A stretch of DNA of 64,000 nucleotides from an uncultured Candidatus Peribacteria bacterium (GTDB taxonomy: Bacteria; Patescibacteriota; Gracilibacteria; UBA1369). The position numbers were made by a program, and so were the translations under genes. The stretch lies in contig CAZUXI010000001.1 in assembly GCA_964624115.1 (NCBI GenBank), forward strand, positions 35,548 to 99,547, written 5' to 3'. Below the pieces are notes generated by a model that was not told the DNA's origin, made no database searches, and saw nothing but the letters and a program-made list of their open reading frames with translations. The first letter of the stretch is position 1, and every line of letters starts with the position of its first letter. Below are positions 1,910-64,000 of this stretch, piece after piece.

Positions 1910-4660
1910 CTACATTTTCTCAAAAACCGTAAGCCCGAGGAGTTTTAACCCGTTACTTAAGACGACATTGACGGCATCTACAATTTTGAGACGGCTTTCA
2001 CGGAGTTCAGGATTTGAGGTATTTAAAACGCTCACATCGTTGTAGAAGGCGTTGAAAGACTTGGAAAGTTCGAAGAGATAATTGGTGATTAAGTTTGGTT
2101 TGTAGTTTTCAATCGAGTTTTGAATCACTTCAGGGAATTTTCCGAGTTCACGCAGGAGGGTTTGTTCGGTTGGATGTGAGAATGGAGCACCTGACTCAAC
2201 TTCAGTTTCAGCTTGTATTTCTGGTTCTTCTTCTTCATCCGTGAGGCTGAAGAGTGAGGTTTGGCGGTCATTTTGATTGAAGGATTTTTTAACAGTTTTT
2301 TCCTCTTTTTCAATTGGAGTTTCTTCACTTTTTCTGAGGATACTTTTGGCGCGAGCACAGGTGTATTGAATAAATGGGCAGCTGTTTCCTTCAAAGGTAA
2401 GGATTTTATCCCAGCTAAAGGTGATATTTGTCTCACGGTTTTGAGAAAGGATGCTGTATTTTATTGCTGAAATCGCGAGGTTTCCGGAGATCTGTTCCTG
2501 CTCCTCTGGGGTCAGATCTTTACTTTTTTCGTTGAGGAGTTCGGTGGCCCGTTTATGACCTTCGTTAATAAGTTCGTCGACAAGAATAATTTCACCTTTT
2601 CGAGTACTCATTTTTCCCTCTGGCATTTGCATGCGACCAAAAATGACGTGTTTCAGTTCAGTCCTTTCGTCACTCAAATGGAAAAGTTTGGCAGTTTCAA
2701 AAAGCTGATTAAAGTGTAGCGTTTGGGCAACATCTACGACATAAATGAGTTTCATCGGATGGTAACGCTTGATCCGATCTTGGATACTTGCAAGGTCACG
2801 GGTGCTGTAAAGCGTTGTTCCATCACTTTTTTGGAGAAGATAAGGCGGATATTTTTCTTCAGGAAAACTCACTATAAGCGCATTATTTTCGCCAGTTGTA
2901 ATGATTTTTTTATCTTCGCCTTCAGCTATGAGTTGCTTCGCCTGGTTCAAATACATTTGTTCACCGAGAAATTCGTCGAAATGGACACCGAGTTTGGTGT
3001 AAAGCCTCTTGAGTTCTTTGATGCTTAATTCCCTCATCCACTCCCAAAGTTTTTGATTTTCGGAATCCCCCTCTTCGAGTTTTTTGAATTCTGCACGACC
3101 TTGTTCGTCTAAGCTTGGGTCTTTTTCTGCTTCATCATGAAATTTAACATAGAGTTTGAGAAGTTCGTTGAGCGGATCCACTTGGACCTGTTCTTGATCA
3201 CCCCAATGACGATAAGCATAGATGAGTTTCCCGAACTGAGTTCCCCAATCGCCGAGGTAGTTTAATTTTGTGACTTTATAACCACCGAAGGACATCATGT
3301 CAGCTATGCTTTGCCCAATCAATGTACTTAAGAGGTGATGAACACCAAGTGGTTTGGCGATATTTGGGGATGAATATTCAACAAGGACCGTTTGATTTTG
3401 ACCAATATTCAATCGGCCGTAATTAGCACGGTAAGAGAGAATTTGTTGGAGTTCTTGTTGTAGATATTTCAGTGAGAGAGTGCAGTTAATAAAGCCAGGA
3501 CCGGCGATTTCTGTTTTCTCAATATCAGCGGTGAGTTCAAGTTTTTTGATAACCTCAGCAGCAAAGTCTTGTGGATTTTCGTTATATTTTTTGGCCAATT
3601 TCATGGCGATATTGGTCGTGTAGTCGCCGTGTGATTGATCTTTAGGAATATCAATGATGATTTCAGATTTATTTTCAAGAAGTGGGAGTCCTTTTTCACT
3701 TAATAATGTGTTGGTCGCGTTAAAAAACTTTTCTTGAAGAATTTCAGAGGTGAGTTTTGAGCTCATGACGGGTGTTTCTGTTGGATGTTCGAGAAAAGAA
3801 GGGAGTTCTTTTTCTTTTGGTACTGTTTTGACCTTTGGGGATTTTGTCGCGGCTTTTTTGTTTCCGGACTTGGTTTCGGAATTTATTTCAGGGGCGGTGA
3901 TTGCTTCTGAAACTTGAGGTGCTGATTCGGGTGATTGAGTTGGGGTTGCAGGAATCGGTGGCTCAAATGATTCAAAGAGTTCGATCTCTTCTTCTTCAAT
4001 ATCTTCGGCTGATGGTTCGGTCATTTGTTCTTGATACTCAAGCTCACGAGTTGAGGTGTATTTGAGATCGCAGTTTTGGTGATCTGCATCGAGGAGATAG
4101 TAGTCAATTTGGCTTGATTCGAGGTATTTATCAATCACTTTCGCAACTTCATCGCTCAGTAAAATGAAGTCTTCACGTGAAAGTGAGTGGATGTTAAAGA
4201 ACCAAAAGACAACGTTTTTGGTCTCTTTGGTGGCTTCAATATCCGGGGTCTTTCGGCCTTTTTTTGGCTCGAAGAGGTCAATGGTAAAGTCCTTTTCCGT
4301 GGTATCGAGATCAGCACCAAAAAGTGGAAGGATGTTTTTAAGAGAAATATAGTTGAGGAGTGAGTAGAAGTTGTTCTTTTCTTCTACATTTTTTCCTTTG
4401 GCAATTTTTTTGAGGGTTTGATCAAGAACGTAAACTTCAAGGAGTTTTTTGTTTTTGAAATCAAAACTGTCGAGCATGGCAAAAATTTTCTCTTTTTTCA
4501 CCGGGTTGGCGAGGTCGCGTTTCCGTTCGGCTTCCGCCCCTCGCAGAAGTTGGCTAATCATGGATTTCCGGCGACTGTTTTGAATATTGTGGGCAACAAT
4601 TACGCTCACATATAAGCCGGGTAACTGTTCAAATATCTCAGGACGAAGGTGAAATTTCAT
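1910..4660 (-). CDS. argS: Arginyl-tRNA synthetase fused to an N-terminal B3/B4-like (PheT-type, COG3382-like) domain through an acidic/Pro-rich linker
   Basis: ORF 1910..4720. The ArgRS core shows SSPNIAKPLGVHHL (HIGH region), MSTRKG (KMSK-like) and a DALR-type C-terminus ending FEKM. The start is taken at ATG 4660 (MKFHLRPEIFEQLPGLYVSVIVA...). Confidence 0.85.
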   Translation of the reverse strand: MKFHLRPEIFEQLPGLYVSVIVAHNIQNSRRKSMISQLLRGAEAERKRDLANPVKKEKIFAMLDSFDFKNKKLLEVYVLDQTLKKIAKGKNVEEKNNFYSLLNYISLKNILPLFGADLDTTEKDFTIDLFEPKKGRKTPDIEATKETKNVVFWFFNIHSLSREDFILLSDEVAKVIDKYLESSQIDYYLLDADHQNCDLKYTSTRELEYQEQMTEPSAEDIEEEEIELFESFEPPIPATPTQSPESAPQVSEAITAPEINSETKSGNKKAATKSPKVKTVPKEKELPSFLEHPTETPVMSSKLTSEILQEKFFNATNTLLSEKGLPLLENKSEIIIDIPKDQSHGDYTTNIAMKLAKKYNENPQDFAAEVIKKLELTADIEKTEIAGPGFINCTLSLKYLQQELQQILSYRANYGRLNIGQNQTVLVEYSSPNIAKPLGVHHLLSTLIGQSIADMMSFGGYKVTKLNYLGDWGTQFGKLIYAYRHWGDQEQVQVDPLNELLKLYVKFHDEAEKDPSLDEQGRAEFKKLEEGDSENQKLWEWMRELSIKELKRLYTKLGVHFDEFLGEQMYLNQAKQLIAEGEDKKIITTGENNALIVSFPEEKYPPYLLQKSDGTTLYSTRDLASIQDRIKRYHPMKLIYVVDVAQTLHFNQLFETAKLFHLSDERTELKHVIFGRMQMPEGKMSTRKGEIILVDELINEGHKRATELLNEKSKDLTPEEQEQISGNLAISAIKYSILSQNRETNITFSWDKILTFEGNSCPFIQYTCARAKSILRKSEETPIEKEEKTVKKSFNQNDRQTSLFSLTDEEEEPEIQAETEVESGAPFSHPTEQTLLRELGKFPEVIQNSIENYKPNLITNYLFELSKSFNAFYNDVSVLNTSNPELRESRLKIVDAVNVVLSNGLKLLGLTVFEKM

Positions 4661-4867
4661 GGCAGTAAAAAATGATCGACTTGAAGTATATGGGATGGTT
4701 GCTAAATGAGCAAACGACACGAAACAATATGAGTAAAATTTGTCAAATGCATTTTAAGGGTTTTGGTGGCTTAGGGGTTAAAGAAAAGCCGTTTTTTTGC
4801 TATAATGACCAGATATGTTTATCAAATACATCAAAAATAAAACTTAAACACTTAAAACCACTGGCTT

Positions 4868-12167: not shown

Positions 12168-13754
12168 TTATTCTTGTTCTGGTTTTTCGTTATCCAGTGT
12201 TTTTTTACCGTAAACCATTGGCATGATGGCTTTCATGAACTCTTCTGGATTGTTTTTTGAAGGAGGGAGTTCTAAGCCAGAGCCACCACCTTTGGTTTTT
12301 CCACCGTACATTCCGGTAGCGTCATCGAGTTTCAAGTAGAAGGTACCGTTGAATTTTGGTGTCCAAGATTTGTCATCATTTTGGTAAGCATAATCTTTGA
12401 CGACCACTTTTTGGGTGTAGCCTTTGTCGACGTACTCTTTGTCTGTGGTTGCATCCAAATCGGTCACGGTGAGGTTATGTTTTGGTAAATGACGGAGGTC
12501 CTCAAGCATTTGTTTGCCTTTATCACGATCTAAACCATCAAGTTTTGCTTTGAGATCAGCGGCTTTCATGTTTTTAAGATCTGATACTTCAGAAGTTTTT
12601 GGATCGTTCGCTTTGAGGGTGAGGAGTTTTGAGTTGTAGGTACCATCTGCGTTATAGGTGATTTCCATGCGTTGTTCACCGAGTTTGGCGTACGTAGTTT
12701 CACCTACTTTTGCTGGAGGGTTGTCGATCACAAAACCTTGATCGGTTAATTCTTTTGTTCGTTTTGCGACGTCCGCGTTTTCTTTGGTCTCAGGTTTTCT
12801 TGGTGCTGGCGGTGGGGTAACTGGAGGTGCTGGGGTTGGTTTTACAGGTACTGGCGGTGGGGTGACTGGAGGTGCTGGGGTTGGTTTTACAGGTGCTGGC
12901 GGTGGATTTGGTGCCGGTGTGTTTGCCCGAGCAGCATCGAGTTGGGCTTTGACCCATTCGGCAGTCATTACTTTGTTGGCTGTGTTGTTGAGAACTTTGT
13001 CTGGGTCTTTACTATCTACTTCCAGTTTTTGGAGATGGTCGGCATTGTCCCAACCTGGAAATTGACCTTTCATAGCGGCTAAACCCTGACGGCTCATTTC
13101 GCCGGTTTCTGATAATGCAGAAAGGCGAATGGCTTCTTTGAGCCATTGGCGGTTATTTTTCAGATCATCAGTATCACCGGGTTTTTCTGGATTGAGTTCG
13201 ACCCATTTCATGGCTGCTTGACGGAGTTGGTTTCGGGCGAGCTCGGAATCGGTGGTTTCGATGTCGATGACTTTGAGGGGTGATGGTTTGAGTTTACCAT
13301 CTTCGGTGTAGAGGGTTCGTACTTCGTCGAGTTTTGTTTTAAGTGCATCCGCCGCATCTTTTTTCTCCTGGTCGGTATATGGGATCATTTTTTCTGGATT
13401 TCCACCGTCTGATTTTAAACCGAATTCAGCTTTACGAGCGTCCATGATTTTGTCGTCAAGTTCGTGGAGTTGATCGCGGTTGGCTTTATCTGGTTCGAAT
13501 TGGTATTTTTTGAGCATCATGACGGACTGACCAATGATTGCGTTGCGGCCTTCTGGATTTTCTTTATCCTCACGAGCATTTGGGGCATCAAAATCTTTGG
13601 CATTTGGTGATGCTTCTGCATTAAGCTCCTGGCCACGGAGGGCTTTGAAGTTTTCCGGTTGGCCACCTTCAAAAACCAAACGATTGGTGAGTTCGAGGGC
13701 TGCGGCTACTTTACAGCTGAGGAGGTTACGGGTGTTAAAAAAGAGTTTTTTCAT
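12168..13754 (-). CDS. Hypothetical protein, paralog A (528 aa) with a Pro-rich tandem repeat and a unique C-terminal domain
   Basis: The N-terminal ~190 aa align with ORF 13796..14614 (RLVFEG, PNAKDFD, EGRNxIxGQ, MLKxYQxEPD, PLKVxDIExTDxELARNQLR). I recognise no family. Confidence 0.6.
   Translation of the reverse strand: MKKLFFNTRNLLSCKVAAALELTNRLVFEGGQPENFKALRGQELNAEASPNAKDFDAPNAREDKENPEGRNAIIGQSVMMLKKYQFEPDKANRDQLHELDDKIMDARKAEFGLKSDGGNPEKMIPYTDQEKKDAADALKTKLDEVRTLYTEDGKLKPSPLKVIDIETTDSELARNQLRQAAMKWVELNPEKPGDTDDLKNNRQWLKEAIRLSALSETGEMSRQGLAAMKGQFPGWDNADHLQKLEVDSKDPDKVLNNTANKVMTAEWVKAQLDAARANTPAPNPPPAPVKPTPAPPVTPPPVPVKPTPAPPVTPPPAPRKPETKENADVAKRTKELTDQGFVIDNPPAKVGETTYAKLGEQRMEITYNADGTYNSKLLTLKANDPKTSEVSDLKNMKAADLKAKLDGLDRDKGKQMLEDLRHLPKHNLTVTDLDATTDKEYVDKGYTQKVVVKDYAYQNDDKSWTPKFNGTFYLKLDDATGMYGGKTKGGGSGLELPPSKNNPEEFMKAIMPMVYGKKTLDNEKPEQE
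12802..12905 (-). repeat. 45-nt tandem repeat, about 2.3 copies, coding (VKPTPAPPVTPPP)x2
   Basis: On the plus strand, ggtgctggcggtggggtaactggaggtgctggggttggttttaca (12802-12846) repeats at 12847-12891 with 2 mismatches. A partial third unit follows. Confidence 0.9.
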
Positions 13755-13795
13755 ATGGGTTTTTAAATGATTTTTTTATTAATTTATTGGTTTAT

Positions 13796-14614
13796 TTATG
13801 AGCGAGCGGTGTCGAGGGCGGATTTGAGGTTCTTTGCAGCTTCGGTTTTATTTATTTTTCGTGTTAAGGGAGGAGTATCTTTTGGGTTATCATTAATGCC
13901 TATTTTGGTTGCATTTGAACCGAATTTTGCTTTTACTTGTTCTGCTGTTTGGTTGTAGAGCTCGCCAGTTTCAGCATAGATGGAAAGTGCGAGGGCTTTT
14001 TTTAGATTTGCGAGATTATCTTTATTTTTATCGGTTTCTTTGGTTTCTTTGAGGAATTTTTGTGCTACTGCACGGAGTTGGTTACGTGCAAGCTCGGTAT
14101 CAGTGGCTTCGATATCAACTACTTTTAAAGGTGGTGGAACGAGTTTGTTCGTTTTAGCGTCGGTGTAGAGTCCACGAACTTTATCGAGTTGTGTTTTAAG
14201 TTCAGTGGCAGCAGTGGTCTTTTCTGCTTCGGTGTATTCTTTTCCATCATCTTTTAAGCCGGCTTCTGTTCTACGAGATTCAACGATGAGTGAATCGAGA
14301 CTTCTTAATTGCTGACGTTTTCCTTCAGTTTCAGCGGTACCGGTATCTGGTTCGTATTGATAACGTTTTAACATCAAAATGGCTTGGCCACGGATAATGT
14401 TGCGGCCTTCAGCGGTTTCTGCTTTTTCACGAGCGAGGTCTTTGTCAAAATCTTTCGCGTTTGGTTCTTCACTTTGCAAATTCGGCTCCACATCACGAAG
14501 GGATTGGAAGTTTTCAGCAGTTGGACCTTCGAAGACTAACCGTTGGGTGAGTTCGATGGTGTTTTTTGCTTTACAGCTGAGGATTTTTCCAGTGAGGAAA
14601 AGTCTTGTTTTCAT
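13796..14614 (-). CDS. Hypothetical protein, paralog B (272 aa)
   Basis: It shares the N-terminal domain with ORF 12168..13754, on the same strand and 41 nt apart. Confidence 0.6.
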   Translation of the reverse strand: MKTRLFLTGKILSCKAKNTIELTQRLVFEGPTAENFQSLRDVEPNLQSEEPNAKDFDKDLAREKAETAEGRNIIRGQAILMLKRYQYEPDTGTAETEGKRQQLRSLDSLIVESRRTEAGLKDDGKEYTEAEKTTAATELKTQLDKVRGLYTDAKTNKLVPPPLKVVDIEATDTELARNQLRAVAQKFLKETKETDKNKDNLANLKKALALSIYAETGELYNQTAEQVKAKFGSNATKIGINDNPKDTPPLTRKINKTEAAKNLKSALDTARS

Positions 14615-21406: not shown

Positions 21407-22786
21407 ATGACAGAAGAAAATATGCAAGAGACATTCAAAGTACCTCCCCATAGTCTGGAGGCCGAAAAGTCGACTCTGGGAGCCATGTTGATTGATAAAG
21501 ATGCCGTGATGAAAGTTGCGGATATCATCCAAGCGGATGATTTTTATCATTTAGCTCATGGGACCATTTTTCAGGTAATTTTTGACCTTTATGATCGACG
21601 TTCACCGATTGATCTTTTGACCGTGAATAATTTATTGGAAGATCGTGGGCAACTGGAACAGGTGGGTGGGGCTTCCTATTTGGCTGCACTTGCCAATGAA
21701 GTTCCCACGGCAAGTCATATTTTTCAATATGCTTTGATAATTAAACATAAAGCTACGTTGAGAAAACTCATTAAGGCGGGCGATACCATCACCGGTTTAG
21801 GTTATAACTCAATGGACCCGCTCGAGGAGCTCTTAGAGAATGCTGAAAAAGCTCTCTTTGGTGTTTCGCAGACTTTTTTGAAGGATCGATTTATCCATAT
21901 TAAGGAGGTGTTGAATGCAACGTATGAAAAAATAACTGAGCTTCATGATCCGGAAATGAAGGATAAGTATCGGGGCATACCGACCGGTTTTGTCGATTTG
22001 GATGGAATTCTTTCCGGCTTTCAACCGGCAGATTTGGTTATTTTGGCGGCACGGCCTTCCATGGGTAAAACGGCTTTGGCTTTGAATGTGGCCCAAAATA
22101 TTGCCCAGAAAGGTTTTAGCTGTGGAATTATTTCTTTGGAAATGTCCAAAGAGCAGTTGGTGGAACGTATGTTCTGTTCATTGCTCGAAGTGGATTCCTG
22201 GAAATTACGAACTGGGAAATTAACCGAAGAGGATTTTATGCGTATTGGAGCGGTCATGGACGAGATGTATGCTATGAAGGTTTATATTGATGATTCCGTG
22301 GGGAATTCGATTGCCGAATTGCGGGCGAAGGCAAGAAGGCTTCAGATGGAACATGGCTTAAACTTTTTGATTATTGATTACCTTCAGTTGATGAGTAGTG
22401 GAGGAAAAGGTTTTAATCAGACAAACCGGGTGCAGGAAATTTCCGAGATTTCACGGGCATTGAAGGGGTTAGCGAGGGAGTTAAAGATTCCAATTTTGGC
22501 TTTATCTCAGCTTTCACGTGCGGTGGAGTTGCGTCCAAGTAAAGTGCCACAACTTTCGGATTTGCGTGAATCTGGGGCGATTGAGCAGGACGCGGATGTG
22601 GTGATGATGATGTATCGGGAGGATTATTATGAGGAAGATACGGACCGAAAAGGGATTACGGATATTTTTGTGCGGAAGCATCGTAATGGGCCGGTAGGCC
22701 GGGTGGAGCTGGGGTTTAAGAAGGAACAGTTGAAGTTTTATAGCTTAGAACGAAATCGGAAGAGTGAAGATTATGCGATGGATTAA
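21407..22786 (+). CDS. dnaB: Replicative DNA helicase
   Basis: N-terminal PPHSLEAEKSTLGAML, Walker A ARPSMGKTALAL, IIDYLQLM, and SQLSRAVE...SDLRESGAIEQDAD. Confidence 0.95.
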   Translation: MTEENMQETFKVPPHSLEAEKSTLGAMLIDKDAVMKVADIIQADDFYHLAHGTIFQVIFDLYDRRSPIDLLTVNNLLEDRGQLEQVGGASYLAALANEVPTASHIFQYALIIKHKATLRKLIKAGDTITGLGYNSMDPLEELLENAEKALFGVSQTFLKDRFIHIKEVLNATYEKITELHDPEMKDKYRGIPTGFVDLDGILSGFQPADLVILAARPSMGKTALALNVAQNIAQKGFSCGIISLEMSKEQLVERMFCSLLEVDSWKLRTGKLTEEDFMRIGAVMDEMYAMKVYIDDSVGNSIAELRAKARRLQMEHGLNFLIIDYLQLMSSGGKGFNQTNRVQEISEISRALKGLARELKIPILALSQLSRAVELRPSKVPQLSDLRESGAIEQDADVVMMMYREDYYEEDTDRKGITDIFVRKHRNGPVGRVELGFKKEQLKFYSLERNRKSEDYAMD

Positions 22787-22946
22787 CGAGGAGGGGAAAC
22801 GAGGTTTCCCCCTCGTAGGCTCCCCCTTCCTATAAAGTCAAAAAATAAAAGGTACTTCGCTTAACTTCGCATTTTACTTTTTAGGGAACCCACAAGACCC
22901 TTAAAAGTAAAATACTACGTGCCGCTTCGTACCTTTTATTTTTTGC
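22773..22946 (+). repeat. Repeat element copy A: 20-codon ORF/hairpin module (MRWINEEGKRGFPLVGSPFL*), then a 16-bp outer stem enclosing a conserved core hairpin
   Basis: It aligns with 54952-55113. Hairpin ggggaaac/gtttcccc lies at 22793-22811. The outer stem is 22840-22855 paired with 22929-22944 (16/16). The core 22858-22925 is nearly identical to copy B. Confidence 0.8.
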
Positions 22947-23188
22947 AGGTTTCATTATTGTTGATTTATATTTGTCATTTTTTTGGTTGATTTTTCGGGA
23001 AAGTGGGCGTTATAGTGCGCGCGTTCTTTAAAAATGCCTTTTGTAGCTTTTGGTTAGCGGAAAGTTTCGGGATAAAGTCTTCTTTTTTTGGGGAAGTTTT
23101 ATGCGAGGTTTTCCGCTGGCCTCAAGTTCTGGGCTATGCCTGTGGCTCTGACAGGTTCAGAGTGTGTTGTGTTCGTGGAGGTGGTTCC

Positions 23189-23674
23189 ATGGCTGATTTG
23201 AAGGTGTTTGTGGGGCTCGTGGGGACTAAGACTGTTGTCCGTGTTGCCGAGACCGAAGTGCAGGCTCGGCAGGGGCTCGACGGGGAGCCTACGTTCTTGA
23301 TCAATGTCGAGAATGAGGGTACGAAAAAGCCTCCACCTGAGTTGGAAGGGATTCTCGACGCGATTGGGCTCTTTGGGCAAGCCACGAAAGAGGAGCTTGA
23401 AGTTGCTCTTCTTTTCATGCTGGTCTCAGGTATAGAGATTGGCTCGCGGATCCGGCTGGAGAACTTGGAAAAACCTGAGGACTTTGTCCGGGTTACCCGG
23501 AGCGTCTTCGGACTGAATCCCGTTCTCGACCAAGAGCCGACGGACCGAGCTCCTCCGGTTACCACGACCTTGCCGCCGCCGGGTCACGACGACCCGACGG
23601 ATCGCCCTCCCGTAGTCGGGGATGACCAGGACGACCCTGGCCATCCTGAGTACAAGCAGCCCAAGGGCTGCTGA
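23189..23674 (+). CDS. Orphan acidic 161-aa protein with a Pro-rich C-terminus, carried on GC-rich cassette 2
   Basis: GGAGGTG lies 6 nt before ATG 23189. The frame is coherent (MADLKVFVGLVGTKTVVRVAETEVQARQG...DDPGHPEYKQPKGC). The antisense ORFs are Ser/Arg-rich junk. A hairpin plus T-run follows the TGA stop. Confidence 0.6.
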   Translation: MADLKVFVGLVGTKTVVRVAETEVQARQGLDGEPTFLINVENEGTKKPPPELEGILDAIGLFGQATKEELEVALLFMLVSGIEIGSRIRLENLEKPEDFVRVTRSVFGLNPVLDQEPTDRAPPVTTTLPPPGHDDPTDRPPVVGDDQDDPGHPEYKQPKGC

Positions 23675-23828
23675 AGGCCACAGGCGAGAACTTCTGGGTG
23701 GTCGGTTGAGCTTTGCTCCCGGCCGCCCAGTTCGCTGTGTTTGTTTTTTTAATTTTTGTGTTTTGCGATTTGGTTTTTTTGCTGGTTTTGAGTATGCTAG
23801 CGGAGGTATTTTAGCTGTTTCTATTTTT

Positions 23829-25373
23829 ATGTCAGAACATTCAACTTCATCGTCTCTTTCGCCGTCTCAAGAGTTTGAGGAACGGAAACGAAAACTTCAG
23901 GATTTGCGGGATGCCAAAATTTCGCCTTATCCAGAGCGGTTTGAGCGGACTCATTTGACCCGGGAGGCTCGGGATTTTGCTGAAAAGAATCCGCCACGTC
24001 CTTTGGAAGATATTTTGAATGGGCCAAAAAATGAGGTTTCTTTGGCGGGTCGATTGATGTTGATGAGACCGCATGGGAAACTTACTTTTGGTCAAATTCA
24101 GGATGCGGGTGGTCGGCTTCAGATCTGTTTTATGCAGGACTTTTTGGGTGTTGATGCCTACAAAATGTTGAAAAAGATTGATATGGCGGACTTTTTGAGC
24201 GTGAAAGGAGAACTTTTTTTGACCAAACATGGAGAGATTACGGTTCTGGTCAAAGAGTATCAATTGCTTTCAAAAGCTCTTCGCCCTCTTCCGGAAAAAT
24301 TTCATGGACTCAAAGATACTGAATCCCAGTACCGTTACCGGTATTTGGATATGCTGAGTAATCCGCAAACTTATGAGCGGTTTATTGTGCGAAGTAAGCT
24401 TATTTCTGCGCTGCGGAAGTTTTTGGATAGTCATAATTTTTTGGAGATTGAAACACCGATTTTGAATACGATTGCTTCGGGGGCTATGGCAAAACCGTTT
24501 GTGACTCATCATAACGCTCTCGATTTTGATGTCTTTTTGCGGATTGCACCTGAAACTTATTTGAAACGTGCGGTGGTTGGTGGATTGGAACGAGTGTATG
24601 AGTTTGCGAAATGTTTTCGGAATGAAGGGATTGATCCTTCACACCTTCAAGAGTTTACGATGCTGGAGTTTTATGGCTCCTACTGGAACTTTGAGGACAA
24701 TATGAACTTTACGGAGAACATGATTGTGGAGGCGATTAAAGAGGTAAATGGAGGAAGTCTCCAGGTAAAATGTTTGGATCGTGATGGGAAAGAACAGCTG
24801 ATTGATTTTGCTGCGCCTTGGCCACGGGTTCAATTTGGGGAGTTGATTCGTCAGGATTGCGGGATTGATATTTTGGAATATTACAATGATGCTCCAGGTC
24901 TTTTGAAAGCGATTAAAGATAAAGGTATCAAACTTGAAAAAGCTGAAGGTCTTGGGTATGGAAATTTATGTGATGCACTCTATAAGAAGGTTTCTCGTCC
25001 AAATTTAATTCAACCAATGTTTGTGATTAAGCATCCGGTGGATACCAAACCGCTTGCACGCCGCAATGATGATGACCCTCGATTGGCTGACACTTTTCAG
25101 CTCCTGGTGAATACGTGGGAAATTGTGAATGCTTATTCTGAGCTTGTTGATCCGCTTGATCAACGGGAACGTTTGGTCAATCAAGCGTCTGCCAAGGCGG
25201 GCGGGGATGATGAAGCGATGCCGATGGATGAAGATTACCTGCTTTCCATGGAGCATGGTATGCCGCCGATGTCCGGGTTTGGAATGGGTATTGACCGATT
25301 GATGGCGCTTTTGAGTCAGCAGGATAACCTTAAAGATGTGGTCCTCTTCCCACTCATGAAACCGCAGGAGTAA
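23829..25373 (+). CDS. lysS: Lysyl-tRNA synthetase, class II
   Basis: ORF 23622..25373; the start is taken at ATG 23829 (MSEHSTSS...). It has an OB-fold N-domain, CFRNEGID (motif 2 region) and GFGMGIDRLMALL (motif 3). Confidence 0.9.
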   Translation: MSEHSTSSSLSPSQEFEERKRKLQDLRDAKISPYPERFERTHLTREARDFAEKNPPRPLEDILNGPKNEVSLAGRLMLMRPHGKLTFGQIQDAGGRLQICFMQDFLGVDAYKMLKKIDMADFLSVKGELFLTKHGEITVLVKEYQLLSKALRPLPEKFHGLKDTESQYRYRYLDMLSNPQTYERFIVRSKLISALRKFLDSHNFLEIETPILNTIASGAMAKPFVTHHNALDFDVFLRIAPETYLKRAVVGGLERVYEFAKCFRNEGIDPSHLQEFTMLEFYGSYWNFEDNMNFTENMIVEAIKEVNGGSLQVKCLDRDGKEQLIDFAAPWPRVQFGELIRQDCGIDILEYYNDAPGLLKAIKDKGIKLEKAEGLGYGNLCDALYKKVSRPNLIQPMFVIKHPVDTKPLARRNDDDPRLADTFQLLVNTWEIVNAYSELVDPLDQRERLVNQASAKAGGDDEAMPMDEDYLLSMEHGMPPMSGFGMGIDRLMALLSQQDNLKDVVLFPLMKPQE

Positions 25374-28593: not shown

Positions 28594-28674
28594 AACGGGA
28601 AGGGGAAACGGGGTTTCCCGATTCGGCTGAAAGGCCTCCTGAACAACTGCCCTCTCGTAGGCCCTTCTTTCCTT
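28594..28674 (+). repeat. Repeat element copy C: short module only, with a 30-nt in-frame insertion
   Basis: aac ggg aag ggg aaa cgg ggt ttc ccg [30 nt] cct ctc gta ggc cct tct ttc reads NGKGKRGFP[IRLKGLLNNC]PLVGPSF. It fills the convergent gap between guaA and the next gene. Confidence 0.65.
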
Positions 28675-29784
28675 TTAGGCCATGGTGTTCATGGTGAGGG
28701 CGGCGATGAGGGGGATGATGAGGTTGTCGTCGAATGTTTTGTCTAAGAAACGGATAGAGAAGATCTCCCAGGCCATGGCAAAGGTGGCACCGAGGAAGGC
28801 CATTTGGAAGGGGACAAAATTAAAAGCGCCTATGGTTGCAATAATGATGGCAAGCACAGTACCTTCCAAGTGCTTTATGGGATTGAGTGGATTTTTGAGT
28901 TTGCCAAAGTAGGTTCCAACCAGCGTTGAGACTGCGTCACCGAGGCCCATAATCATGATGGAGGCGAGGGCGATAGGTTTGGGGAAAAAGATGGTCACCA
29001 TAAATGAACCTATCAGGAGGTAGATTGCTCCCTTTCCAGGAAATTGTGTCAGGTGGTCTTTCCGTTCAAAGGGTCGAAGTAAATGAAGAATGAAAGGGAT
29101 TTTTTGGTATTTGACTGAAAGTGAACACCCAATTCCGATAATTATGAGAATAAAGAGCGAAATGGTGTGCAGAAGGTCAAATTTTATGAGGAGGGCAATA
29201 GACACCGCTGAGAAGGCGTGGGCAATTTGCCTTCGTAGCTCGAGCTTGCTTTTTACATGATGGAGAAACCAGTTGGTGAGCTGATATTTTTCTTCAGCGG
29301 ACAGGATTACTTTGGCAATCACATATCCGATAACACTTCCGGCGAGGAGATCTGAAAGGTAATGAACGCCGAGGTAGATTCGACTCAAGATGATGAGGAA
29401 TGTAAAAAGCATGAGGGGAAGGTGGATCCGTTTTTTGGGGAATATTTTTGGTAAAAAGGCGATGATTGCTGAACAGATGGTCGCGTGCATACTGGGAAAA
29501 GCGTAGCCGGATGCTTGGGTTAAGGCGATATCGCTGAGGTTTTCAGTGTGGTAGGGGCGGGGGATTTGAAAAAAACGTTTGAGAAGGTAACTGATTTCAA
29601 GTGTTATTCCAGCAGACAAAGTGAGGAGGATAAGGATGTTTCCTTTTCGTTTTTTCAGAAGAAAGAGTGTCAGGAGCACAAGAAAAATATAGAGGCCAAT
29701 ATCCGTTAAAAAAAGCATGCTTTGATCAAGCCATGGAGTTCGTAAGGTGGCGATGAATTTTACGATGGTTTGATCGATGTTCAT
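28675..29784 (-). CDS. PAP2 phosphatase domain fused to a polyprenol/dolichol-kinase-like (CTP-transferase-type) membrane domain
   Basis: The N-terminal half has PAP2 motifs (KRFFQIPRP, FPSMHA, SRIYLGVHYLSD). The C-terminal half (GKGAIYLLIG...IMGLGDAVSTLVGTYFGK) resembles dolichol/phytol kinase family proteins as I recall them. Confidence 0.55.
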   Translation of the reverse strand: MNIDQTIVKFIATLRTPWLDQSMLFLTDIGLYIFLVLLTLFLLKKRKGNILILLTLSAGITLEISYLLKRFFQIPRPYHTENLSDIALTQASGYAFPSMHATICSAIIAFLPKIFPKKRIHLPLMLFTFLIILSRIYLGVHYLSDLLAGSVIGYVIAKVILSAEEKYQLTNWFLHHVKSKLELRRQIAHAFSAVSIALLIKFDLLHTISLFILIIIGIGCSLSVKYQKIPFILHLLRPFERKDHLTQFPGKGAIYLLIGSFMVTIFFPKPIALASIMIMGLGDAVSTLVGTYFGKLKNPLNPIKHLEGTVLAIIIATIGAFNFVPFQMAFLGATFAMAWEIFSIRFLDKTFDDNLIIPLIAALTMNTMA

Positions 29785-38858: not shown

Positions 38859-38894
38859 AAAAAAAAGACGCCCCGGCTCGGGGCGTCTTTTTTT
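38859..38894. terminator. Bidirectional intrinsic terminator
   Basis: A-run, then gacgccccg-gct-cggggcgtc (perfect 9-bp GC stem), then T7. It sits between convergent genes. Confidence 0.8.
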
Positions 38895-50983: not shown

Positions 50984-51033
50984 AAATTCTAAGCTTTCCA
51001 AGCATCAAACTTTCAAATAAATTCTAAAGTTAA
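50984..51033 (+). promoter_or_regulatory. G-poor AATTCT leader upstream of murB; 41 nt are identical to 63893-63933
   Basis: AAATTCTAAGCTTTCCAAGCATCAAACTTTCAAATAAATTCTAAAGTTAA-ATG. Confidence 0.5.
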
Positions 51034-53604: not shown

Positions 53605-53780
53605 TTCCCAATGAATTTAATTGACGAATTTTTCCTTTTATAGAGGCCAAATATTAATAATTAACAAGGTTTACCAATAGCTTTAATATAACCGCTTGGG
53701 GCTTTTTTGTTTGGAAGGCTTGTAAATGGGGCTGTTTTTTGCTATTATTATATGAAAACAAAATTTTTATTTCACAAAAT

Positions 53781-54170
53781 ATGCTGAAAAAAATCAAAAA
53801 AGCTCTGGTGATTGGCACCTACACCGTTATGGGCTTCAACCTTGTATCTGTTCTCCCTGTGAGTGCCCAGGGAATGATCTCTGAAAAAGATCAACCATCA
53901 CGTATTTCTGATGCAACGGGTGGAGCTGATGATTTCAGAACCCTTGCTCAGACTTTTTTAAGCTTTTTCCTTGGATTTTTGGGATTCATCGCGGTGATGA
54001 TGATCATTTATGCCGGTATTTTGTATATTACTGCTCAAGGTGAACAAGATAAGGTTGATAAAGCAAAGAAAATTATTACTTACTCTATCGTAGGTATTCT
54101 TATTATCCTCCTCTCTTACGCTATCGTTAGTACTGTTCTTGGTGGTGTTGGTGCAGGTAGTGATCAGTAA
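53781..54170 (+). CDS. TrbC/VirB2-like 'T4SS pilin' small membrane protein
   Basis: Signal peptide ending VSAQG, then two TM helices around a conserved loop (IAVMMIIYAGILYITAQGEQDKVDKAKKIITYSIVGILIILLSYAIV). This pattern is common in Patescibacteria, from memory. Confidence 0.65.
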   Translation: MLKKIKKALVIGTYTVMGFNLVSVLPVSAQGMISEKDQPSRISDATGGADDFRTLAQTFLSFFLGFLGFIAVMMIIYAGILYITAQGEQDKVDKAKKIITYSIVGILIILLSYAIVSTVLGGVGAGSDQ

Positions 54171-54335
54171 AAAGGAGTTTCGAGCGCTTTTGGATGAACG
54201 AGCGCTGGTAAAATCGCCCTAGAAAAGCTTTAAAAAAGACCTGTCGGAAACGATGGGTCTTTTTTTGTTTGTAATCGCTGGGAAACTCAAAGGTCCAAGC
54301 ATCAAACGATCAAATATTGAAATGAAAGTTTTGGC

Positions 54336-54479
54336 TTAGCGCCACTTCTTGATGAATTTTACGACGTCGAAGTTTTTGGGGAGTTTGACGTCGGAGAAAG
54401 CTTTTTGGAGGTCGATCATGGCTTGTTTGAGCTCCATGGCGTCTTTCGTCATTTTTTGTTTTTTTCGTGAGTTGGTCAT
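54336..54479 (-). CDS. 47-aa basic ORF translationally coupled to the 3' end of the PIN gene (possible cognate partner)
   Basis: Own translation: MTNSRKKQKMTKDAMELKQAMIDLQKAFSDVKLPKNFDVVKFIKKWR. Its ATG overlaps the PIN TGA (ATGA). It is below the 60-aa cutoff of the ORF track. Confidence 0.4.
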   Translation of the reverse strand: MTNSRKKQKMTKDAMELKQAMIDLQKAFSDVKLPKNFDVVKFIKKWR

Positions 54480-54889
54480 ATGGTTTTTGGATTAAATTGT
54501 TCGTAAGCGGCAAGAAGTTTTTTATCACCAGTTAGAAAAATATCGACATTATATTCTTGAGTGTATGCCAAAATAATCAAATCATGTGTATGTAATTTAA
54601 TCTTCTTGGTATAAAAATCAAATTTTTTGAACCAGAAAATTTCCTTGGAGCAGAATTTTTTTATATTTTTTCGCCTGAAAGTGTATTCGAGTTTTTGTTC
54701 TTTTATTGTATCGAATAACATTCGGTGAAGTACGTTTTTCACTTCCGCATAGATTATTTCTGGCAATAGAATAATTGAATCTTTTTCAATTAGTTTCATT
54801 ATTTTATTTGTGGTTTCACGATCTTTTTCAATACCCAGGGCATAGGAGATCCAGGTGGAGCTGTCGAAGAGGCAGGTTTTTTTGTGCAT
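54476..54889 (-). CDS. PIN-domain (VapC-like) ribonuclease
   Basis: Four acidic positions lie in the expected order: CLFDSS, IIYAEV, THDLIILAY, LTGDKKL. Confidence 0.7.
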   Translation of the reverse strand: MHKKTCLFDSSTWISYALGIEKDRETTNKIMKLIEKDSIILLPEIIYAEVKNVLHRMLFDTIKEQKLEYTFRRKNIKKFCSKEIFWFKKFDFYTKKIKLHTHDLIILAYTQEYNVDIFLTGDKKLLAAYEQFNPKTI

Positions 54890-54951: not shown

Positions 54952-55113
54952 AATTTCACGAAAGGAAAACGGGGTTTTCCTCTCGTGGGCTCTCCTTTCC
55001 TGTAGAGTCAAAAACCAACTTTTCCTGCGCTTAACTTCGCATTTTTCTTTTTTGGGACCCACAAGACCCTAAAAAGTAAAATACTACGTGCGCTCCGGAA
55101 AAGTTGATTTTTG
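54952..55113 (+). repeat. Repeat element copy B
   Basis: It reads NFTKGKRGFPLVGSPFL* with no start codon. The hairpin is aggaaaac/gttttcct. The outer stem is 55010-55025 paired with 55097-55112 (15/16). The core is nearly identical to copy A. It ends about 25 nt from the terminator of GC cassette 3. Confidence 0.8.
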
Positions 55114-55138
55114 CTGTGATTTTTTTTGGGGGCATTGG

Positions 55139-55176
55139 AAAAGAGCCCTCGACGTCGGATGACGGAGGGCTCTTGG
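55139..55176 (-). terminator. Hairpin terminator of the cassette-3 gene
   Basis: aagagccctc (55141-50) pairs perfectly with gagggctctt (55165-74). On the minus strand it is followed by a short T-run. Confidence 0.5.
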
Positions 55177-55369
55177 GGATGGACCGCAGGGACGCGCCTC
55201 GAGCCGTTGCCTTGGGAGGCTTGGGCGAGAGCGTTGCGATACGCGGGTGAGGCGCGTTTACCTGAAGGTCCATGGTGTGCCCGGGCAGAGTTTCAAATGT
55301 CTCTGCTCGGGCGTGAATCACGGTGAGCTCCCCAGCTCAGCGTGAGTGGCTCGATCGAGTTCTAAACTT

Positions 55370-56224
55370 CTAGAACTCGATCCCGTTCGGGCCAACCTTT
55401 TTCGGGTTGGCGAACGGCCAGCTTGGGGGGTTGAACGCCGGCTGGGAGGAGGCGGAGCCCGAGGAGGCTCCGCCGGGCCACGTGGGCGCCACCACGATGG
55501 TGACGTTGGTGGGGGGCTGGCCAGGCGCCCCGGGGATTGTCGTGGTGGTCGGGGCGGTGGGGATCCAACCTGGGGGGGTGGGGGCGGAGGGGGTCCAGCC
55601 GGGGGGGAGCGGAGGAATGGGCGGGATAGCGCTGGGGAAGCCGGGGGGCGGGTTCGGGGGCTGGGGCACCGGAACCCAGCCAGGGGGGAGAGGGGGCGGC
55701 GGGACCTGAGTGGGAGGGGCGGTCGGAGGGGGCGGGGCGGTCTGGGTTGAGGTCGGAGCGGGAGGTGAGGCGGGGGTGGATGACGTTGCGGTTGGCGGGG
55801 CGGGGTTGCCGTTGGACGAGCAACCCTTGTACAAAAGGCCTGCGCCGATGATAGCCGCGAGAACTCCGCCAGTGATGGCCCACGTTTGCCACTTCTTGTA
55901 CCAAGGGGTGGCGGCCGGAGCCGGTACGGGGACGATCGGAGGGACGAACCCGGGGGCGCCGGGGGCAGCCCACGCGGCCAACATGGCGCCGTTGTTGAAG
56001 GTGGCCAGAGGGCCAGCGAGCGCGGTTGCCATGGGGCTGCCAGCCGGAGCGGCGGCGACCATGGCGGCGTGGAGGTTGTTGAGTTGCGTCTGATCGGGGT
56101 TACCACCAACCCCGAAGAGGGTATCGAACTGTGTCCCGGCGGCGGTGGTATCCGCCGGGTTGAGCACGCCCACGCCATTCGGCGGGGCGGCTACGCTCCA
56201 GATGAACTGCTGTCGAGTTGCCAT
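55370..56224 (-). CDS. Orphan single-pass membrane protein with a PPGW-repeat polyproline C-terminal region, carried on GC-rich cassette 3
   Basis: AAGGAG lies 8 nt before ATG 56224 (MATRQQFIW...). The TM is WAITGGVLAAIIGAGLLY, followed by LPPGWVP...LPPGWTP...PPGWIP. Codons are G/C-ending. The alternative frames are Arg/Pro junk. Confidence 0.6.
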   Translation of the reverse strand: MATRQQFIWSVAAPPNGVGVLNPADTTAAGTQFDTLFGVGGNPDQTQLNNLHAAMVAAAPAGSPMATALAGPLATFNNGAMLAAWAAPGAPGFVPPIVPVPAPAATPWYKKWQTWAITGGVLAAIIGAGLLYKGCSSNGNPAPPTATSSTPASPPAPTSTQTAPPPPTAPPTQVPPPPLPPGWVPVPQPPNPPPGFPSAIPPIPPLPPGWTPSAPTPPGWIPTAPTTTTIPGAPGQPPTNVTIVVAPTWPGGASSGSASSQPAFNPPSWPFANPKKVGPNGIEF

Positions 56225-62358: not shown

Positions 62359-63894
62359 GTGTCCACGGTAGCGCGTAAAATTTTGTTTAATACGGTTGCT
62401 CAGGTGATTGGTCGTGGGTTTACGGCGGTTTTTAGCGTAATCATCGTTAAGATTATTACGAACTATTTGGGTGTTGCGGGTTATGGCGATTACACGGCGA
62501 TTTACGAATTTATTTCATTTTTTGCAATTGCTTCTGACTTGGGACTTTATACGATTGCAGTGCGGGAAATGGCGAAAAATCCTGTAAAAACCCAAATGAT
62601 TGTTGGGAATGTACTGACGGTTCGAACCCTGGTTTCGGCGTTTACGATGTTTTTGGCGGTCGTCCTTTCTTTCTTTTATGCGAGTCCTGAAACCACTATC
62701 GTTTTTCCTTTAGCTGTCGCAATTACCGGCTTATCAACAATTTTTGCGCTTCAAACGGTGGCAGTTTCGACTGTTCTGCAAGTTAATTTGAAGATGCAAT
62801 ATAACTCGCTCGGATCGGTGTTTGGAAAAATATTGACCCTGGTCTCGATTGTTTCAGTTGTTTTTTTGATCCATCCAAGTACGCCAGAACAGGGATTTTA
62901 CCTCCTCTTGGTTGCGGGGATTGTGGGAAACTTGGGTATGCTTTTAATGACCTATGGTTTTGCTCGAAAATATACCAATATTCGTTTTCGGATTGATTGG
63001 GATTTCTTGAAAAATGTGGTTTGGAAAGCACTTCCTTACGGCTTGGCACTGGTGCTCAATGTGCTTTATTTCCGGATTGGCTCGATGCTGCTTTATCGGA
63101 TTGCTGGGCCGGAGCAGGCCGGTATTTATGGTGTACCAATGCGGATGCTTGAGGCCGTAGCAATTGTGCCGCAGTATTTTATGAATTCGGTTTTGCCCAT
63201 TCTGACCAGAACTCTGGAAGAGAAAAATAAAAGGTATCAGCAGATTATTCAGTATTCGTTTGATTTTTTGGTCATGACGGGGGTTTCTATTGCGGTTGGT
63301 ACTGCGGTACTCGCCTATCCAATTGTGGCGATTGTGAGTAGTCCAGAGTTTTTGAGCCGCGTGAATGAAGGTTTTTTTGGTTCTGATATGTCTTTGCAGA
63401 TTTTGATTTTCGCACTCGCGTTTTCGTTTATTAACACTTTGTTTGGGTTCACTTTGGTGGCCATCAATAAGCAGTCGAAGTTGTTAATTATTAATGGAAG
63501 CGGCGCGCTGATTGCTATTGTTCTCAATTTACTTTTGATTCCGCAATTTGGTTCACGGGGATCAGCGATGAGTTCAATTGTTGTTGAGTTTTTTATTGCA
63601 CTTGCCGCTTATTTGTATGCCAAAAAATATCTGGATTTTAAATTGAATTTTGTTCCGGCGTTGAAAATTTTGTTTTCTGGAGCAGTGATGGGAGCTGTCC
63701 TTTTAGCTCTACGCGATCCCCTCTTTCATTTTATGGGACTAGAGAATAAGAGTTTGATTTTATTGATTCCATTGGGGGCTTCAGTATTTATTGGATTACT
63801 GGTATTTACCAAAGTTATTACCAAAGATATGGTGCAGACGATTTTGAAGAGGAATAAGGTGGTTACTGAAGAGATTGAGCCACCGGTGGTATAA
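62359..63894 (+). CDS. Wzx/MOP-superfamily oligosaccharide flippase
   Basis: About 14 TM helices, with an N-terminal pattern (LFNTVAQVIGRGFTAVFSVIIVKIITNYLGVAGYGDY) typical of polysaccharide-biosynthesis flippases. GTG start. Confidence 0.7.
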   Translation: MSTVARKILFNTVAQVIGRGFTAVFSVIIVKIITNYLGVAGYGDYTAIYEFISFFAIASDLGLYTIAVREMAKNPVKTQMIVGNVLTVRTLVSAFTMFLAVVLSFFYASPETTIVFPLAVAITGLSTIFALQTVAVSTVLQVNLKMQYNSLGSVFGKILTLVSIVSVVFLIHPSTPEQGFYLLLVAGIVGNLGMLLMTYGFARKYTNIRFRIDWDFLKNVVWKALPYGLALVLNVLYFRIGSMLLYRIAGPEQAGIYGVPMRMLEAVAIVPQYFMNSVLPILTRTLEEKNKRYQQIIQYSFDFLVMTGVSIAVGTAVLAYPIVAIVSSPEFLSRVNEGFFGSDMSLQILIFALAFSFINTLFGFTLVAINKQSKLLIINGSGALIAIVLNLLLIPQFGSRGSAMSSIVVEFFIALAAYLYAKKYLDFKLNFVPALKILFSGAVMGAVLLALRDPLFHFMGLENKSLILLIPLGASVFIGLLVFTKVITKDMVQTILKRNKVVTEEIEPPVV

Positions 63895-63933
63895 ATTCTA
63901 AGCTTTCCAAGCATCAAACTTTCAAATAAATTC
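63893..63933 (+). repeat. Second copy of the 41-nt AAATTCTAAG...AAATTC leader; it starts on the flippase stop codon
   Basis: It is identical over 41 nt to 50984-51024 and presumably precedes the next gene, which starts beyond the readable region. Confidence 0.6.
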
Positions 63934-64000
63934 AAAATATTAAATCCTAATGTTTAAAGTTGGGGCAGTTTTTTATTTTTGTTTTTTCTAAAATCGAGGT

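What the first reader, a model, noticed from the sequence alone, without database searches (positions are those of the whole stretch)
22773..22946. Intergenic repeat element in which every substitution between copies is codon-phase-3 or stem-compensatory
Copy A (after dnaB) and copy B (54952-55113) align end to end and show three layers of constraint.

(i) Over A 22794-22835 versus B 54964-55005 I count 9 differences, and all 9 fall on every third base. In the + frame both copies read GKRGFPLVGSPFL and stop at the same position (TAA versus TAG). Four of the nine changes are also pairwise compensatory in a hairpin (A ggggaaac/gtttcccc; B aggaaaac/gttttcct).

(ii) A 16-bp stem follows. Its sequence is entirely different in the two copies, yet it is self-complementary in both (A aaaaaataaaaggtac/gtaccttttatttttt; B aaaaaccaacttttcc/ggaaaagttgattttt, one mismatch).

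(iii) That stem encloses a core of about 70 nt that is almost identical in sequence (cgcttaacttcgcatttt...ggg(a)acccacaagaccc...aaagtaaaatactacgtgc). The core folds into a long imperfect hairpin with loop (a)acccacaaga, and the two copies differ there by an indel, so it behaves as non-coding.

A plain terminator, REP or MITE does not explain simultaneous coding-type and RNA-structure-type constraint. I do not recognise this as a known RNA family.
Basis: seen in the sequence. Interest (0 to 1): 0.8.

Follow-up and report, generated by a model that had tools for sequence, protein, structure and literature searches.

The report
Conserved hairpin RNA element in Peregrinibacteria
Two copies of a long intergenic hairpin carry a 77-base core that recurs in two other candidate-phylum (Peregrinibacteria) contigs with compensating stem changes, so it looks like an undescribed structured RNA or repeat element, and there is no good evidence that it also encodes a peptide.

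Summary
Copies A (22786-22946) and B (54957-55113) align end to end. Between 22793 and 22835 all 10 differences are transitions in one codon phase. A 16-17 bp closing stem is self-complementary in both copies but unrelated in sequence. The core is about 95% identical.

The element is a mosaic of two parts. The first is a gene-end hairpin plus pyrimidine tail ("module 1"), which has a third, core-less copy at 28594-28680. The second is a rod-like hairpin built like this genome's A-run/stem/T-run terminators, with a 77-nt core at its tip.

The core has no Rfam match. It recurs in two other contigs, one certainly Peregrinibacteria and one of unassigned taxon. Three sequence boxes are invariant and 8 stem pairs change compensatorily. 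All four copies fold better on the minus strand. The core is absent from syntenic sites in close relatives.

Coding is not supported. Copy B has no start codon and an in-frame TGA. Copy C has out-of-phase changes. No predicted protein contains the peptide. Six of the ten in-phase changes are explained by one purine arm pairing with two pyrimidine tracts.

Best reading: a new, patchily distributed structured non-coding element, probably RNA-level and possibly mobile. Its function is unknown.

The parts
22786..22816 (.). Copy A, module 1 hairpin (ACGAGgaGGGGAAAC gag GTTTCCCC CTCGT). It starts at the last base of the dnaB stop codon.
   Evidence: Sequence. Pair table. Repeat family D6.
22817..22839 (.). 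Copy A, pyrimidine-rich tail (aggctcccccttcctataaagtc). Positions 22823-22829 are complementary to the purine arm 22790-22796, giving an alternative helix.
   Evidence: 7 pairs in A, 7 in B, 9 in C; G.U pairs on the plus strand. (3 copies found, 0.01 expected).
22839..22855 (.). Copy A, 5' arm of the closing stem (A-run plus copy-specific sequence).
22852..22930 (-). Copy A, conserved 77-nt core. Minus-strand RNA sense: box GAAGCGGCACGUAG, covarying stem, apical GGGUCUUGUGGGUUCCC, stem, box GCGAAGUUAAGCG.
   Evidence: Covariance-model hit of 86.2 bits, E 2.6e-19. Alignment A2. Covariation.
22929..22945 (.). Copy A, 3' arm of the closing stem plus T-run.
54957..54987 (.). Copy B, module 1 hairpin (13 bp; one A.C on the plus strand, which is G.U on the minus strand).
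54988..55009 (.). Copy B, pyrimidine-rich tail.
55010..55025 (.). Copy B, 5' arm of the closing stem. Its sequence is unrelated to that of copy A.
55022..55098 (-). Copy B, conserved 77-nt core.
   Evidence: Covariance-model hit of 90.7 bits, E 1.9e-20.
55097..55113 (.). Copy B, 3' arm of the closing stem plus T-run.
28594..28680 (.). Copy C, module 1 only, with a 30-33 nt insertion. It lies between the convergent ends of guaA (+) and a PAP2 gene (-). On the minus strand its hairpin is followed by U6.

Best explanation
A and B are two copies of a composite, non-coding intergenic element.

Its defining part is a ~107-nt rod-like hairpin. The base of the rod is built like this genome's bidirectional intrinsic terminators (A-run, stem, T-run). 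The upper part is a 77-nt core belonging to a small, previously undescribed family of structured elements in Peregrinibacteria (candidate phyla radiation).

The core acts through its folded form, most likely as RNA read from the minus strand. Two invariant internal-loop boxes and an invariant apical loop are held in place by stems whose sequence is free to change as long as pairing is kept. One of the internal loops, GUA opposite GAA, is loop-E-like. This arrangement is typical of a protein-binding or processing-site RNA.

The upstream module 1 is a separate gene-end hairpin repeat. Its purine arm can pair with either of two pyrimidine tracts, and this double complementarity produces most of the apparent codon-phase pattern.

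Shown here: repeat, structure, covariation, strand asymmetry, patchy distribution, mosaic identity.

Inferred: that the element is transcribed, that it binds a factor or marks a processing or termination site, and that it spreads by recombination or insertion into terminator-type hairpins.
For: - Only two core copies occur in 64 kb, both highly significant.
- Homologues were found by pattern scans in a Peregrinibacteria genome assembled from a metagenome (MAG; L003:5639-5716, CBDUQS010000022.1) and in a metagenome contig (L004:148-222). They score 82-83 bits with the covariance model.
- The boxes ACGUAG, GGGUCUYGUGGG..CCC and GCGAAGUUAAGCG are invariant, while the stems between them differ.
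- 8 of 20 pairs show changes on both sides. 91% of cells are paired, against 22-50% when the 3' partners are slid. 0 of 500 shuffles reach the observed covariation score.
- The minus strand folds better in all four homologues. For the rod the values are -45.6 vs -36.2, -45.7 vs -32.8, -32.0 vs -29.3 and -25.2 vs -17.4 kcal/mol. The same direction holds for the whole unit.
- A U.G pair at the base of the inner stem is kept in 3 sequences and is C-G in the fourth.
- No Rfam family matches, even at E <= 10.
- Other terminators in the window have the same A-run/stem/T-run build (38860-38894, 54232-54265).
- Mosaic identity between A and B: module 1 79% (transitions only), closing-stem arms 23-38%, core 93-97% (transversions only).
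- Presence/absence: relatives with 80-82% identical DnaB have a convergent gene directly after dnaB and no core. Relatives of L003 with 84-96% identical TyrRS have a 72-154 nt spacer instead of 247 nt and no core.
- Short-read contigs break at or inside the element in two genomes.
Against: - Only four core sequences from three lineages are available, so covariation statistics are weak and the 2-bp helices between the boxes never vary.
- No promoter-like site lies upstream on the minus strand. In three of four loci the minus strand is antisense to both flanking genes.
- The alternative helix in module 1 has its G.U pairs on the plus strand, which conflicts with the strand inferred for the rod.
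- No partner protein, target or mobilising enzyme is evident. No transposase, integrase or reverse-transcriptase domain is found in the window.
- Four in-phase transitions are unexplained.
Confidence: 0.5

Rival explanations
1. It is a selfish, non-autonomous mobile DNA element (MITE-, ERIC- or REPIN-like). Its 77-nt core inserts into the tips of pre-existing terminator hairpins. The conserved boxes and the fold are then recognition features for a trans-acting recombinase or transposase, not for a cellular RNA function.
For: - The closing-stem arms are non-homologous between A and B although the core is ~95% identical.
- The arms look like the genome's ordinary terminators.
- Distribution is patchy, with empty syntenic sites in close relatives.
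- Copy A sits where two genes present in L005 are missing.
- Assembly breaks occur at the element.
Against: - There are no terminal inverted repeats shared between copies and no target-site duplication.
- L004 has no flanking inverted repeat, and L003 has only a weak one.
- No transposase, Y1/HUH enzyme, integrase or reverse transcriptase is found in 64 kb.
- Module 1 and the A-run are conserved right up to the variable arm, so the flanks are not independent.
- The strand asymmetry (G.U pairs) favours RNA. The better-folding strand is the leading-strand template, which is not the strand exposed as single-stranded DNA at the fork (GC skew; inference).
Confidence: 0.25
2. It is an ordinary gene-end terminator or REP-type repeat with no function beyond termination and mRNA stabilisation. 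The similarity between A and B comes from a recent duplication or gene conversion.
For: - The A-run/stem/T-run architecture.
- Module 1 lies exactly at stop codons of dnaB and guaA, and copy C lies between convergent genes with U6 on the minus strand.
Against: - A plain terminator does not keep 13-nt internal-loop boxes and an 11-nt apical loop invariant across three lineages while its stems change.
- Copy B does not follow a plus-strand gene, and it sits downstream of a separate terminator hairpin on the minus strand.
- The unrelated closing arms next to a 95% identical core are not what simple duplication gives.
Confidence: 0.15
3. It is a dual-function element. A micro-ORF (...GKRGFPLVGSPFL), for example a leader or arrest peptide, is translated on the plus strand just upstream of a regulated terminator rod.
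For: - 10 of 10 differences are synonymous in that frame, with a shared stop position 4 nt before the rod.
- In A there is an ATG/GTG with a purine-rich stretch upstream.
- aaRS genes lie downstream of the element in A (aspS) and in L003 (tyrS).
Against: - B has no start codon and has an in-frame TGA. Its nearby ATG is in another frame.
- B has no plus-strand gene downstream.
- Copy C changes residues and has no stop.
- L003 and L004 have no similar ORF.
- The peptide is absent from all predicted proteins.
- The pattern is equally synonymous on the other strand.
- The changes are transitions only, with none of the transversions expected at the seven four-fold sites.
- The rod folds better on the minus strand.
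Confidence: 0.07

Closest known systems
ERIC / IRU elements of Enterobacteriaceae (127-bp imperfect palindromes in transcribed intergenic regions; from my own knowledge)
   Same: - Long imperfect palindrome in intergenic DNA.
- Sequence strongly conserved across species while genomic locations are not.
- Either orientation relative to flanking genes.
- Some copies carry internal insertions (compare copy C).
- Thought to act at the RNA level.
   Different: - No sequence similarity.
- Here the two halves of the rod are not inverted copies of each other. The boxes on the two sides differ.
- Copy number appears low.
- The lineage is Peregrinibacteria.
BOX (boxA-boxB-boxC) and Correia elements (modular, hairpin-forming intergenic repeats of Streptococcus and Neisseria; own knowledge)
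   Same: - Modular build: module 1 occurs with or without the core rod.
- Stable hairpins at gene ends.
- Possible terminator or processing role.
   Different: Correia elements have 26-bp terminal inverted repeats and a TA duplication. Neither is seen here. There is no sequence similarity.
Bidirectional intrinsic terminators
   Same: A-run, GC-containing stem and T-run, at gene ends. Other examples in the same window have the same build.
   Different: The stem-loop is ~107 nt. Its tip holds a 77-nt insert with invariant internal loops that are conserved in other genomes.
Lineage-specific structured ncRNA motifs found by comparative genomics (Rfam-type 'orphan' motifs)
   Same: Invariant loops held by covarying helices, a conserved G.U pair, and intergenic location.
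   Different: - Not in Rfam 15.
- Two copies lie within 32 kb.
- It is absent from close relatives, which is unusual for a housekeeping RNA.
Leader-peptide attenuators and Rickettsia palindromic elements (sequences under both coding and structural constraint; own knowledge)
   Same: An apparent synonymous-only divergence overlaps a hairpin, followed by a terminator-like rod.
   Different: The ORF is not intact in copy B. The peptide is not conserved in copy C or in the homologues. No protein contains it.

Membership tests
Any Rfam 15 family | Covariance-model score at or near the family's gathering threshold | tested here: not met
   Only 5 tRNAs in the window at gathering score. At E <= 10 on A, L003 and L004 there are only scattered sub-threshold miRNA/CRISPR-type hairpin hits, and no family recurs.
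Intrinsic (rho-independent) terminator | Stable stem-loop immediately followed by a U-run, at a gene's 3' end | tested here: inconclusive
   The rod is flanked by an A-run and a T-run on both strands. The simple scanner does not call it, because the loop exceeds 8 nt. Copy A follows dnaB. Copy B follows no plus-strand gene.
MITE | Terminal inverted repeats shared by all copies, plus a target-site duplication | tested here: not met
   The inverted arms differ between A and B (23-38% identity). No direct duplication lies at the borders. L004 lacks flanking inverted repeats.
REP / REPIN (RAYT-mobilised) | Two inverted copies of one ~20-35 nt palindromic unit with a GTAG head; a RAYT (Y1 transposase) gene in the genome | tested here: not met
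   The 5' and 3' boxes are not inverted copies of each other. No Y1_Tnp domain is found in the window's ORFs. The rest of the genome was not available.
Integron attC site | R'' (RYYYAAC) at one end paired with a complementary R' (GTTRRRY) at the other | tested here: not met
   GCTTAAC fits R'', but the opposite side reads TACGTGC, not GTTRRRY.
T-box leader (two copies lie upstream of aaRS genes) | Stem I with specifier codon matching the regulated aaRS; T-box sequence with UGGN bulge | tested here: not met
   No Rfam T-box hit. The only conserved codon-like string (UAC) is the same upstream of aspS and tyrS. Copy B has no downstream plus-strand gene.
5S rRNA or a derivative | Three-helix junction; global similarity to 5S | tested here: not met
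   The only shared string is the 10-mer GAAGUUAAGC with B. subtilis 5S. No Rfam 5S hit at E <= 10.
Protein-coding micro-ORF | Start codon and open frame in every copy; substitutions synonymous in every copy; homologous peptides elsewhere | tested here: not met
   A has a start codon. B has none and has an in-frame TGA. C has phase-1 changes and no shared stop. No protein shares three 5-residue words with the peptide.
att repeats flanking an integrated island | Direct repeats bounding a block of accessory genes with an integrase | tested here: not met
   The 32 kb between A and B starts with core genes syntenic with L005 (aspS, Wzy_C gene, guaA). No integrase is found.

The most novel reading that the evidence does not exclude
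The core is a new class of small structured RNA, with loop-E-like internal loops and an invariant apical loop. It lives inside terminator-type hairpins and moves between them. On this reading it is a mobile RNA gene or module of candidate-phyla-radiation bacteria, and its variable closing stem is supplied by the host site. A weaker variant of this reading adds that module 1 is truly under joint peptide and RNA selection.
Probability: 0.15. Interest if true: 0.75.

Novelty: new member of a known kind. Interest (0 to 1): 0.42.

Why it matters
Candidate-phyla-radiation bacteria have tiny genomes and almost no described non-coding RNAs or repeat families. A conserved, covarying 77-nt element that appears and disappears between close relatives would be a handle on RNA-based regulation or on genome plasticity in uncultured lineages.

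It also gives a caution. A run of "synonymous-only" differences can arise in non-coding sequence when one purine arm must stay complementary to two pyrimidine tracts.

With four sequences and no expression data, this is a candidate motif and not yet a discovery.

Tried and rejected
- Rfam at gathering and permissive thresholds on A, L003 and L004: nothing.
- Phage and plasmid blastn: nothing relevant.
- Three viral-contig pattern scans: none, or unrelated hits that fail the covariance model.
- 5S rRNA resemblance: only a 10-mer.
- Sarcin-ricin-like string UACGAGAGG in module 1: it lies in a stem arm, not in a GAGA loop. Judged a coincidence from memory.
- T-box, attC, MITE, REPIN and island-att readings: defining features not met (see the membership tests).
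- Minus-strand ORF, UGA read-through or selenocysteine: the frame upstream of the TGA closes at a TAA within the rod. The long ORFs in the window show the standard genetic code.
- Parallel triple helix between the tail and the purine arm: copy C does not fit, whereas the antiparallel helix does (and by inspection).
- Closing-stem arms as guides: no meaningful matches elsewhere in the window.
- Module 1 as an inverted partial copy of the core, and pairing of the apical loop with CCYACGAG in module 1: similarity is weak and inconsistent, the motif is not enriched, and it is absent from L003 and L004.
- Promoter scan: no minus-strand site.
- Attempt to reach the rest of the source contig through P0001: not on record.
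- Literature search for Peregrinibacteria RNA motifs or repeats: nothing relevant.

Full report
**Observation.**
Copy A spans 22786-22946, immediately after dnaB (21407-22786). Copy B spans 54957-55113.

Segment by segment:
- Module 1 (22793-22839) is 79% identical, with 10 differences. All 10 are transitions, and all fall in the phase that is codon position 3 of the frame reading GKRGFPLVGSPFL-stop.
- The five-base A-run is identical.
- The next 13 nt, and their partners on the other side, are 38% and 23% identical. Yet they form a perfect 16-17 bp stem in each copy.
- The core is 93-97% identical. Its three substitutions are all A/T transversions, and there is one 1-nt indel in the apical loop.

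The core boxes occur only at these two places in 64 kb. A third, partial copy (C, 28594-28680) contains module 1 only. It is split by a 30-33 nt insertion and lies between the convergent ends of guaA and a PAP2-family gene.

**Organism and context.**
DnaB and TyrRS relatives carry source names such as Candidatus Peregrinibacteria, Gracilibacteria and Patescibacteria. Long ORFs under table 11 show that TGA is a stop codon.

- Copy A lies between dnaB (+) and a hypothetical gene followed by aspS (+).
- Copy B lies between a PIN-domain gene (-) and a GC-rich proline-rich membrane-protein gene (-). That gene has its own terminator hairpin at 55141-55175.
- No large ORF in the window has a transposase, integrase or reverse-transcriptase domain.

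**Relatives elsewhere.**
It is L003:5639-5716, in MAG contig CBDUQS010000022.1, between an NAD kinase gene and tyrS. Its apical loop was not part of the search pattern and proved conserved.

The single metagenome scan returned L004:148-222, upstream of a lipoprotein-like ORF. L003 is a Peregrinibacterium by its TyrRS relatives. The taxon of L004 was not established.

On the minus strand the four sequences share three blocks: GAGC(G)GCACGUAG, GGGUCUYGUGGG(U)YCCC and GCGAAGUUAAGCG. The stems between these blocks differ completely between lineages.

Covariation results:
- RNAalifold finds 20 pairs, 8 of them with compensatory double changes.
- In the pair count, 91% of cells are paired, against 22-50% when partners are slid.
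- No shuffle out of 500 reaches the observed covariation score.
- With four sequences this is suggestive rather than conclusive.

A covariance model built from these sequences (R1) finds only A and B in the window (90.7 and 86.2 bits). It finds nothing in about 180 kb of other fetched loci apart from L003, L004 and their duplicates. No Rfam family matches.

**Which strand.**
In all four homologues the minus strand (window sense) folds more stably than the plus strand, both for the rod and for the whole unit. Positions that are A.C mismatches on the plus strand are G.U pairs on the minus strand. These include a U.G at the base of the inner stem that is kept in three sequences and is C-G in the fourth.

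This favours an RNA read from the minus strand. On that strand the internal loops read GUA opposite GAA, which I judge from memory to be loop-E-like, together with further purine-rich loops. The rod is followed by a U-run.

Three points count against this:
- No promoter-like site lies upstream on that strand.
- In A, L003 and L004 that strand is antisense to both neighbouring genes.
- The alternative helix of module 1 has its G.U pairs on the plus strand.

I therefore put the minus-strand assignment of the rod at about two in three.

**The codon-phase pattern.**
The pattern is real and improbable by naive counting (3.7e-6), but translation is a poor explanation.
- In copy B the frame has a TGA five codons before the first conserved glycine and no start codon after it. 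The nearby ATG is in another frame.
- One minus-strand frame is equally synonymous, but TGA precedes it in both copies.
- Copy C has phase-1 changes at 22821 and 22824 (Ser-Pro to Pro-Ser) and runs on without the shared stop.
- L003 and L004 encode nothing similar at the homologous place.
- No protein among 5.8 billion clusters shares three 5-residue words with the peptide. This also excludes the idea that the element is the tail of a multicopy gene.
- All ten changes are transitions. Seven of them lie at four-fold degenerate sites, where transversions would also be synonymous.

Structure explains much of the pattern. The purine arm positions 22793 and 22796 pair with 22811 and 22808 in the hairpin. 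They also pair with 22826 and 22823 in an alternative helix with the pyrimidine tail. In B all six positions have changed together, from G-C to A-U. Copy C keeps both helices with G.U pairs.

So six of the ten differences are two three-way compensatory events. Counting events rather than bases brings the probability to between 4e-3 and 5e-4. The remaining four in-phase transitions (22802, 22817, 22832, 22835) stay unexplained.

**Mosaic structure and distribution.**
The inner stem is under pairing-only constraint across lineages, yet it differs by only about 8% between A and B. The closing-stem arms are essentially unrelated. The arms therefore did not diverge from a common ancestor by point mutation. 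They resemble the genome's ordinary A-run/stem/T-run terminators (38860-38894, 54232-54265).

The element is not syntenic in relatives:
- Genomes with 80-82% identical DnaB have a convergent gene 5 nt after dnaB. One of them (L005) has two extra genes between dnaB and aspS.
- Genomes with 84-96% identical TyrRS to L003 have 72-154 nt spacers that cannot be aligned with L003's 247 nt, and they have no core.
- Short-read contigs end at the first bases of core A (L001) and start inside the L003 core (L020).

Together this points to gain and loss, multi-copy status or population heterogeneity. That fits a recombining or mobile cassette. However, no terminal inverted repeats, no target duplication and no mobilising enzyme were found.

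**Conclusion.**
- Best-supported reading (about 0.5): a new, sparsely distributed structured non-coding element of Peregrinibacteria. It acts through a folded, probably minus-strand RNA with invariant loops, is embedded in a terminator-type hairpin, and is joined in this genome to a separate gene-end hairpin repeat.
- Selfish DNA element that targets terminator tips: about 0.25.
- Plain terminator or REP-type repeat: about 0.15.

The closest known analogues are ERIC, BOX and Correia-type intergenic hairpin repeats and orphan ncRNA motifs. Membership in every named family tested failed. I rate it a new member of a known kind, of moderate interest, pending a wide covariance-model scan and transcript mapping.

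Noticed in passing
window 55114-56224: A minus-strand gene (55370-56224) for a proline-rich membrane protein has 67-77% GC in a window of about 42% GC. It is followed by 257 nt of GC-rich non-coding sequence with hairpins (55141-55175, 55353-55382) that abuts copy B. This may be foreign DNA or an unrecognised structured RNA. Rfam finds nothing there.
   Followed up: partly
window 50984-51028 and 63893-63937: A 45-nt intergenic repeat is 98% identical between its two copies (AAATTCTAAGCTTTCCAAGCATCAAACTTTCAAATAAATTC). One copy lies just upstream of murB. The similarity ends sharply on both sides.
   Followed up: partly
window 12168-14614: Two adjacent minus-strand genes without Pfam domains are paralogues (70-80% identical stretches about 855 nt apart). 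There is also a 3 x 45-nt tandem repeat at 12793-12927.
   Followed up: no
L001 end; L020 start; L013 start: Logan short-read contigs break at or inside the element in two different genomes. L001 stops at ...aaaaggtacttcgc. L020 begins at taactttgggg, inside the L003 core. L013 begins 50 nt before tyrS.
   Followed up: partly
L003:5600-5640 and L004:110-150 (minus strand, 3' of the core): L003 and L004 share an extra motif, GCGAAAACA, 14 nt after the 3' box, followed by GGAARG and a hairpin. Copies A and B also have a GGAA(A/G)G purine box and a hairpin at the same distance of about 27 nt.
   Followed up: partly
window 22787-23621 versus L005:11369-13958: Relative to a genome with 80% identical DnaB, the window lacks two genes between dnaB and aspS, and two more between the Wzy_C gene and guaA. 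Copy A plus a domain-less ORF (23003-23674) occupies the first gap.
   Followed up: partly
window 1910-4720 (-) and 23622-25373 (+): The arginyl-tRNA synthetase ORF has an N-terminal extension of about 340 residues before its first Pfam domain. The aspartyl-tRNA synthetase has about 120 extra N-terminal residues as read from the first ATG. Start codons were not verified.
   Followed up: no
window 53739-54889: A type IV secretion pilin-like gene (53739-54170) and a PIN-domain gene with no adjacent antitoxin ORF (54476-54889) lie next to copy B.
   Followed up: no
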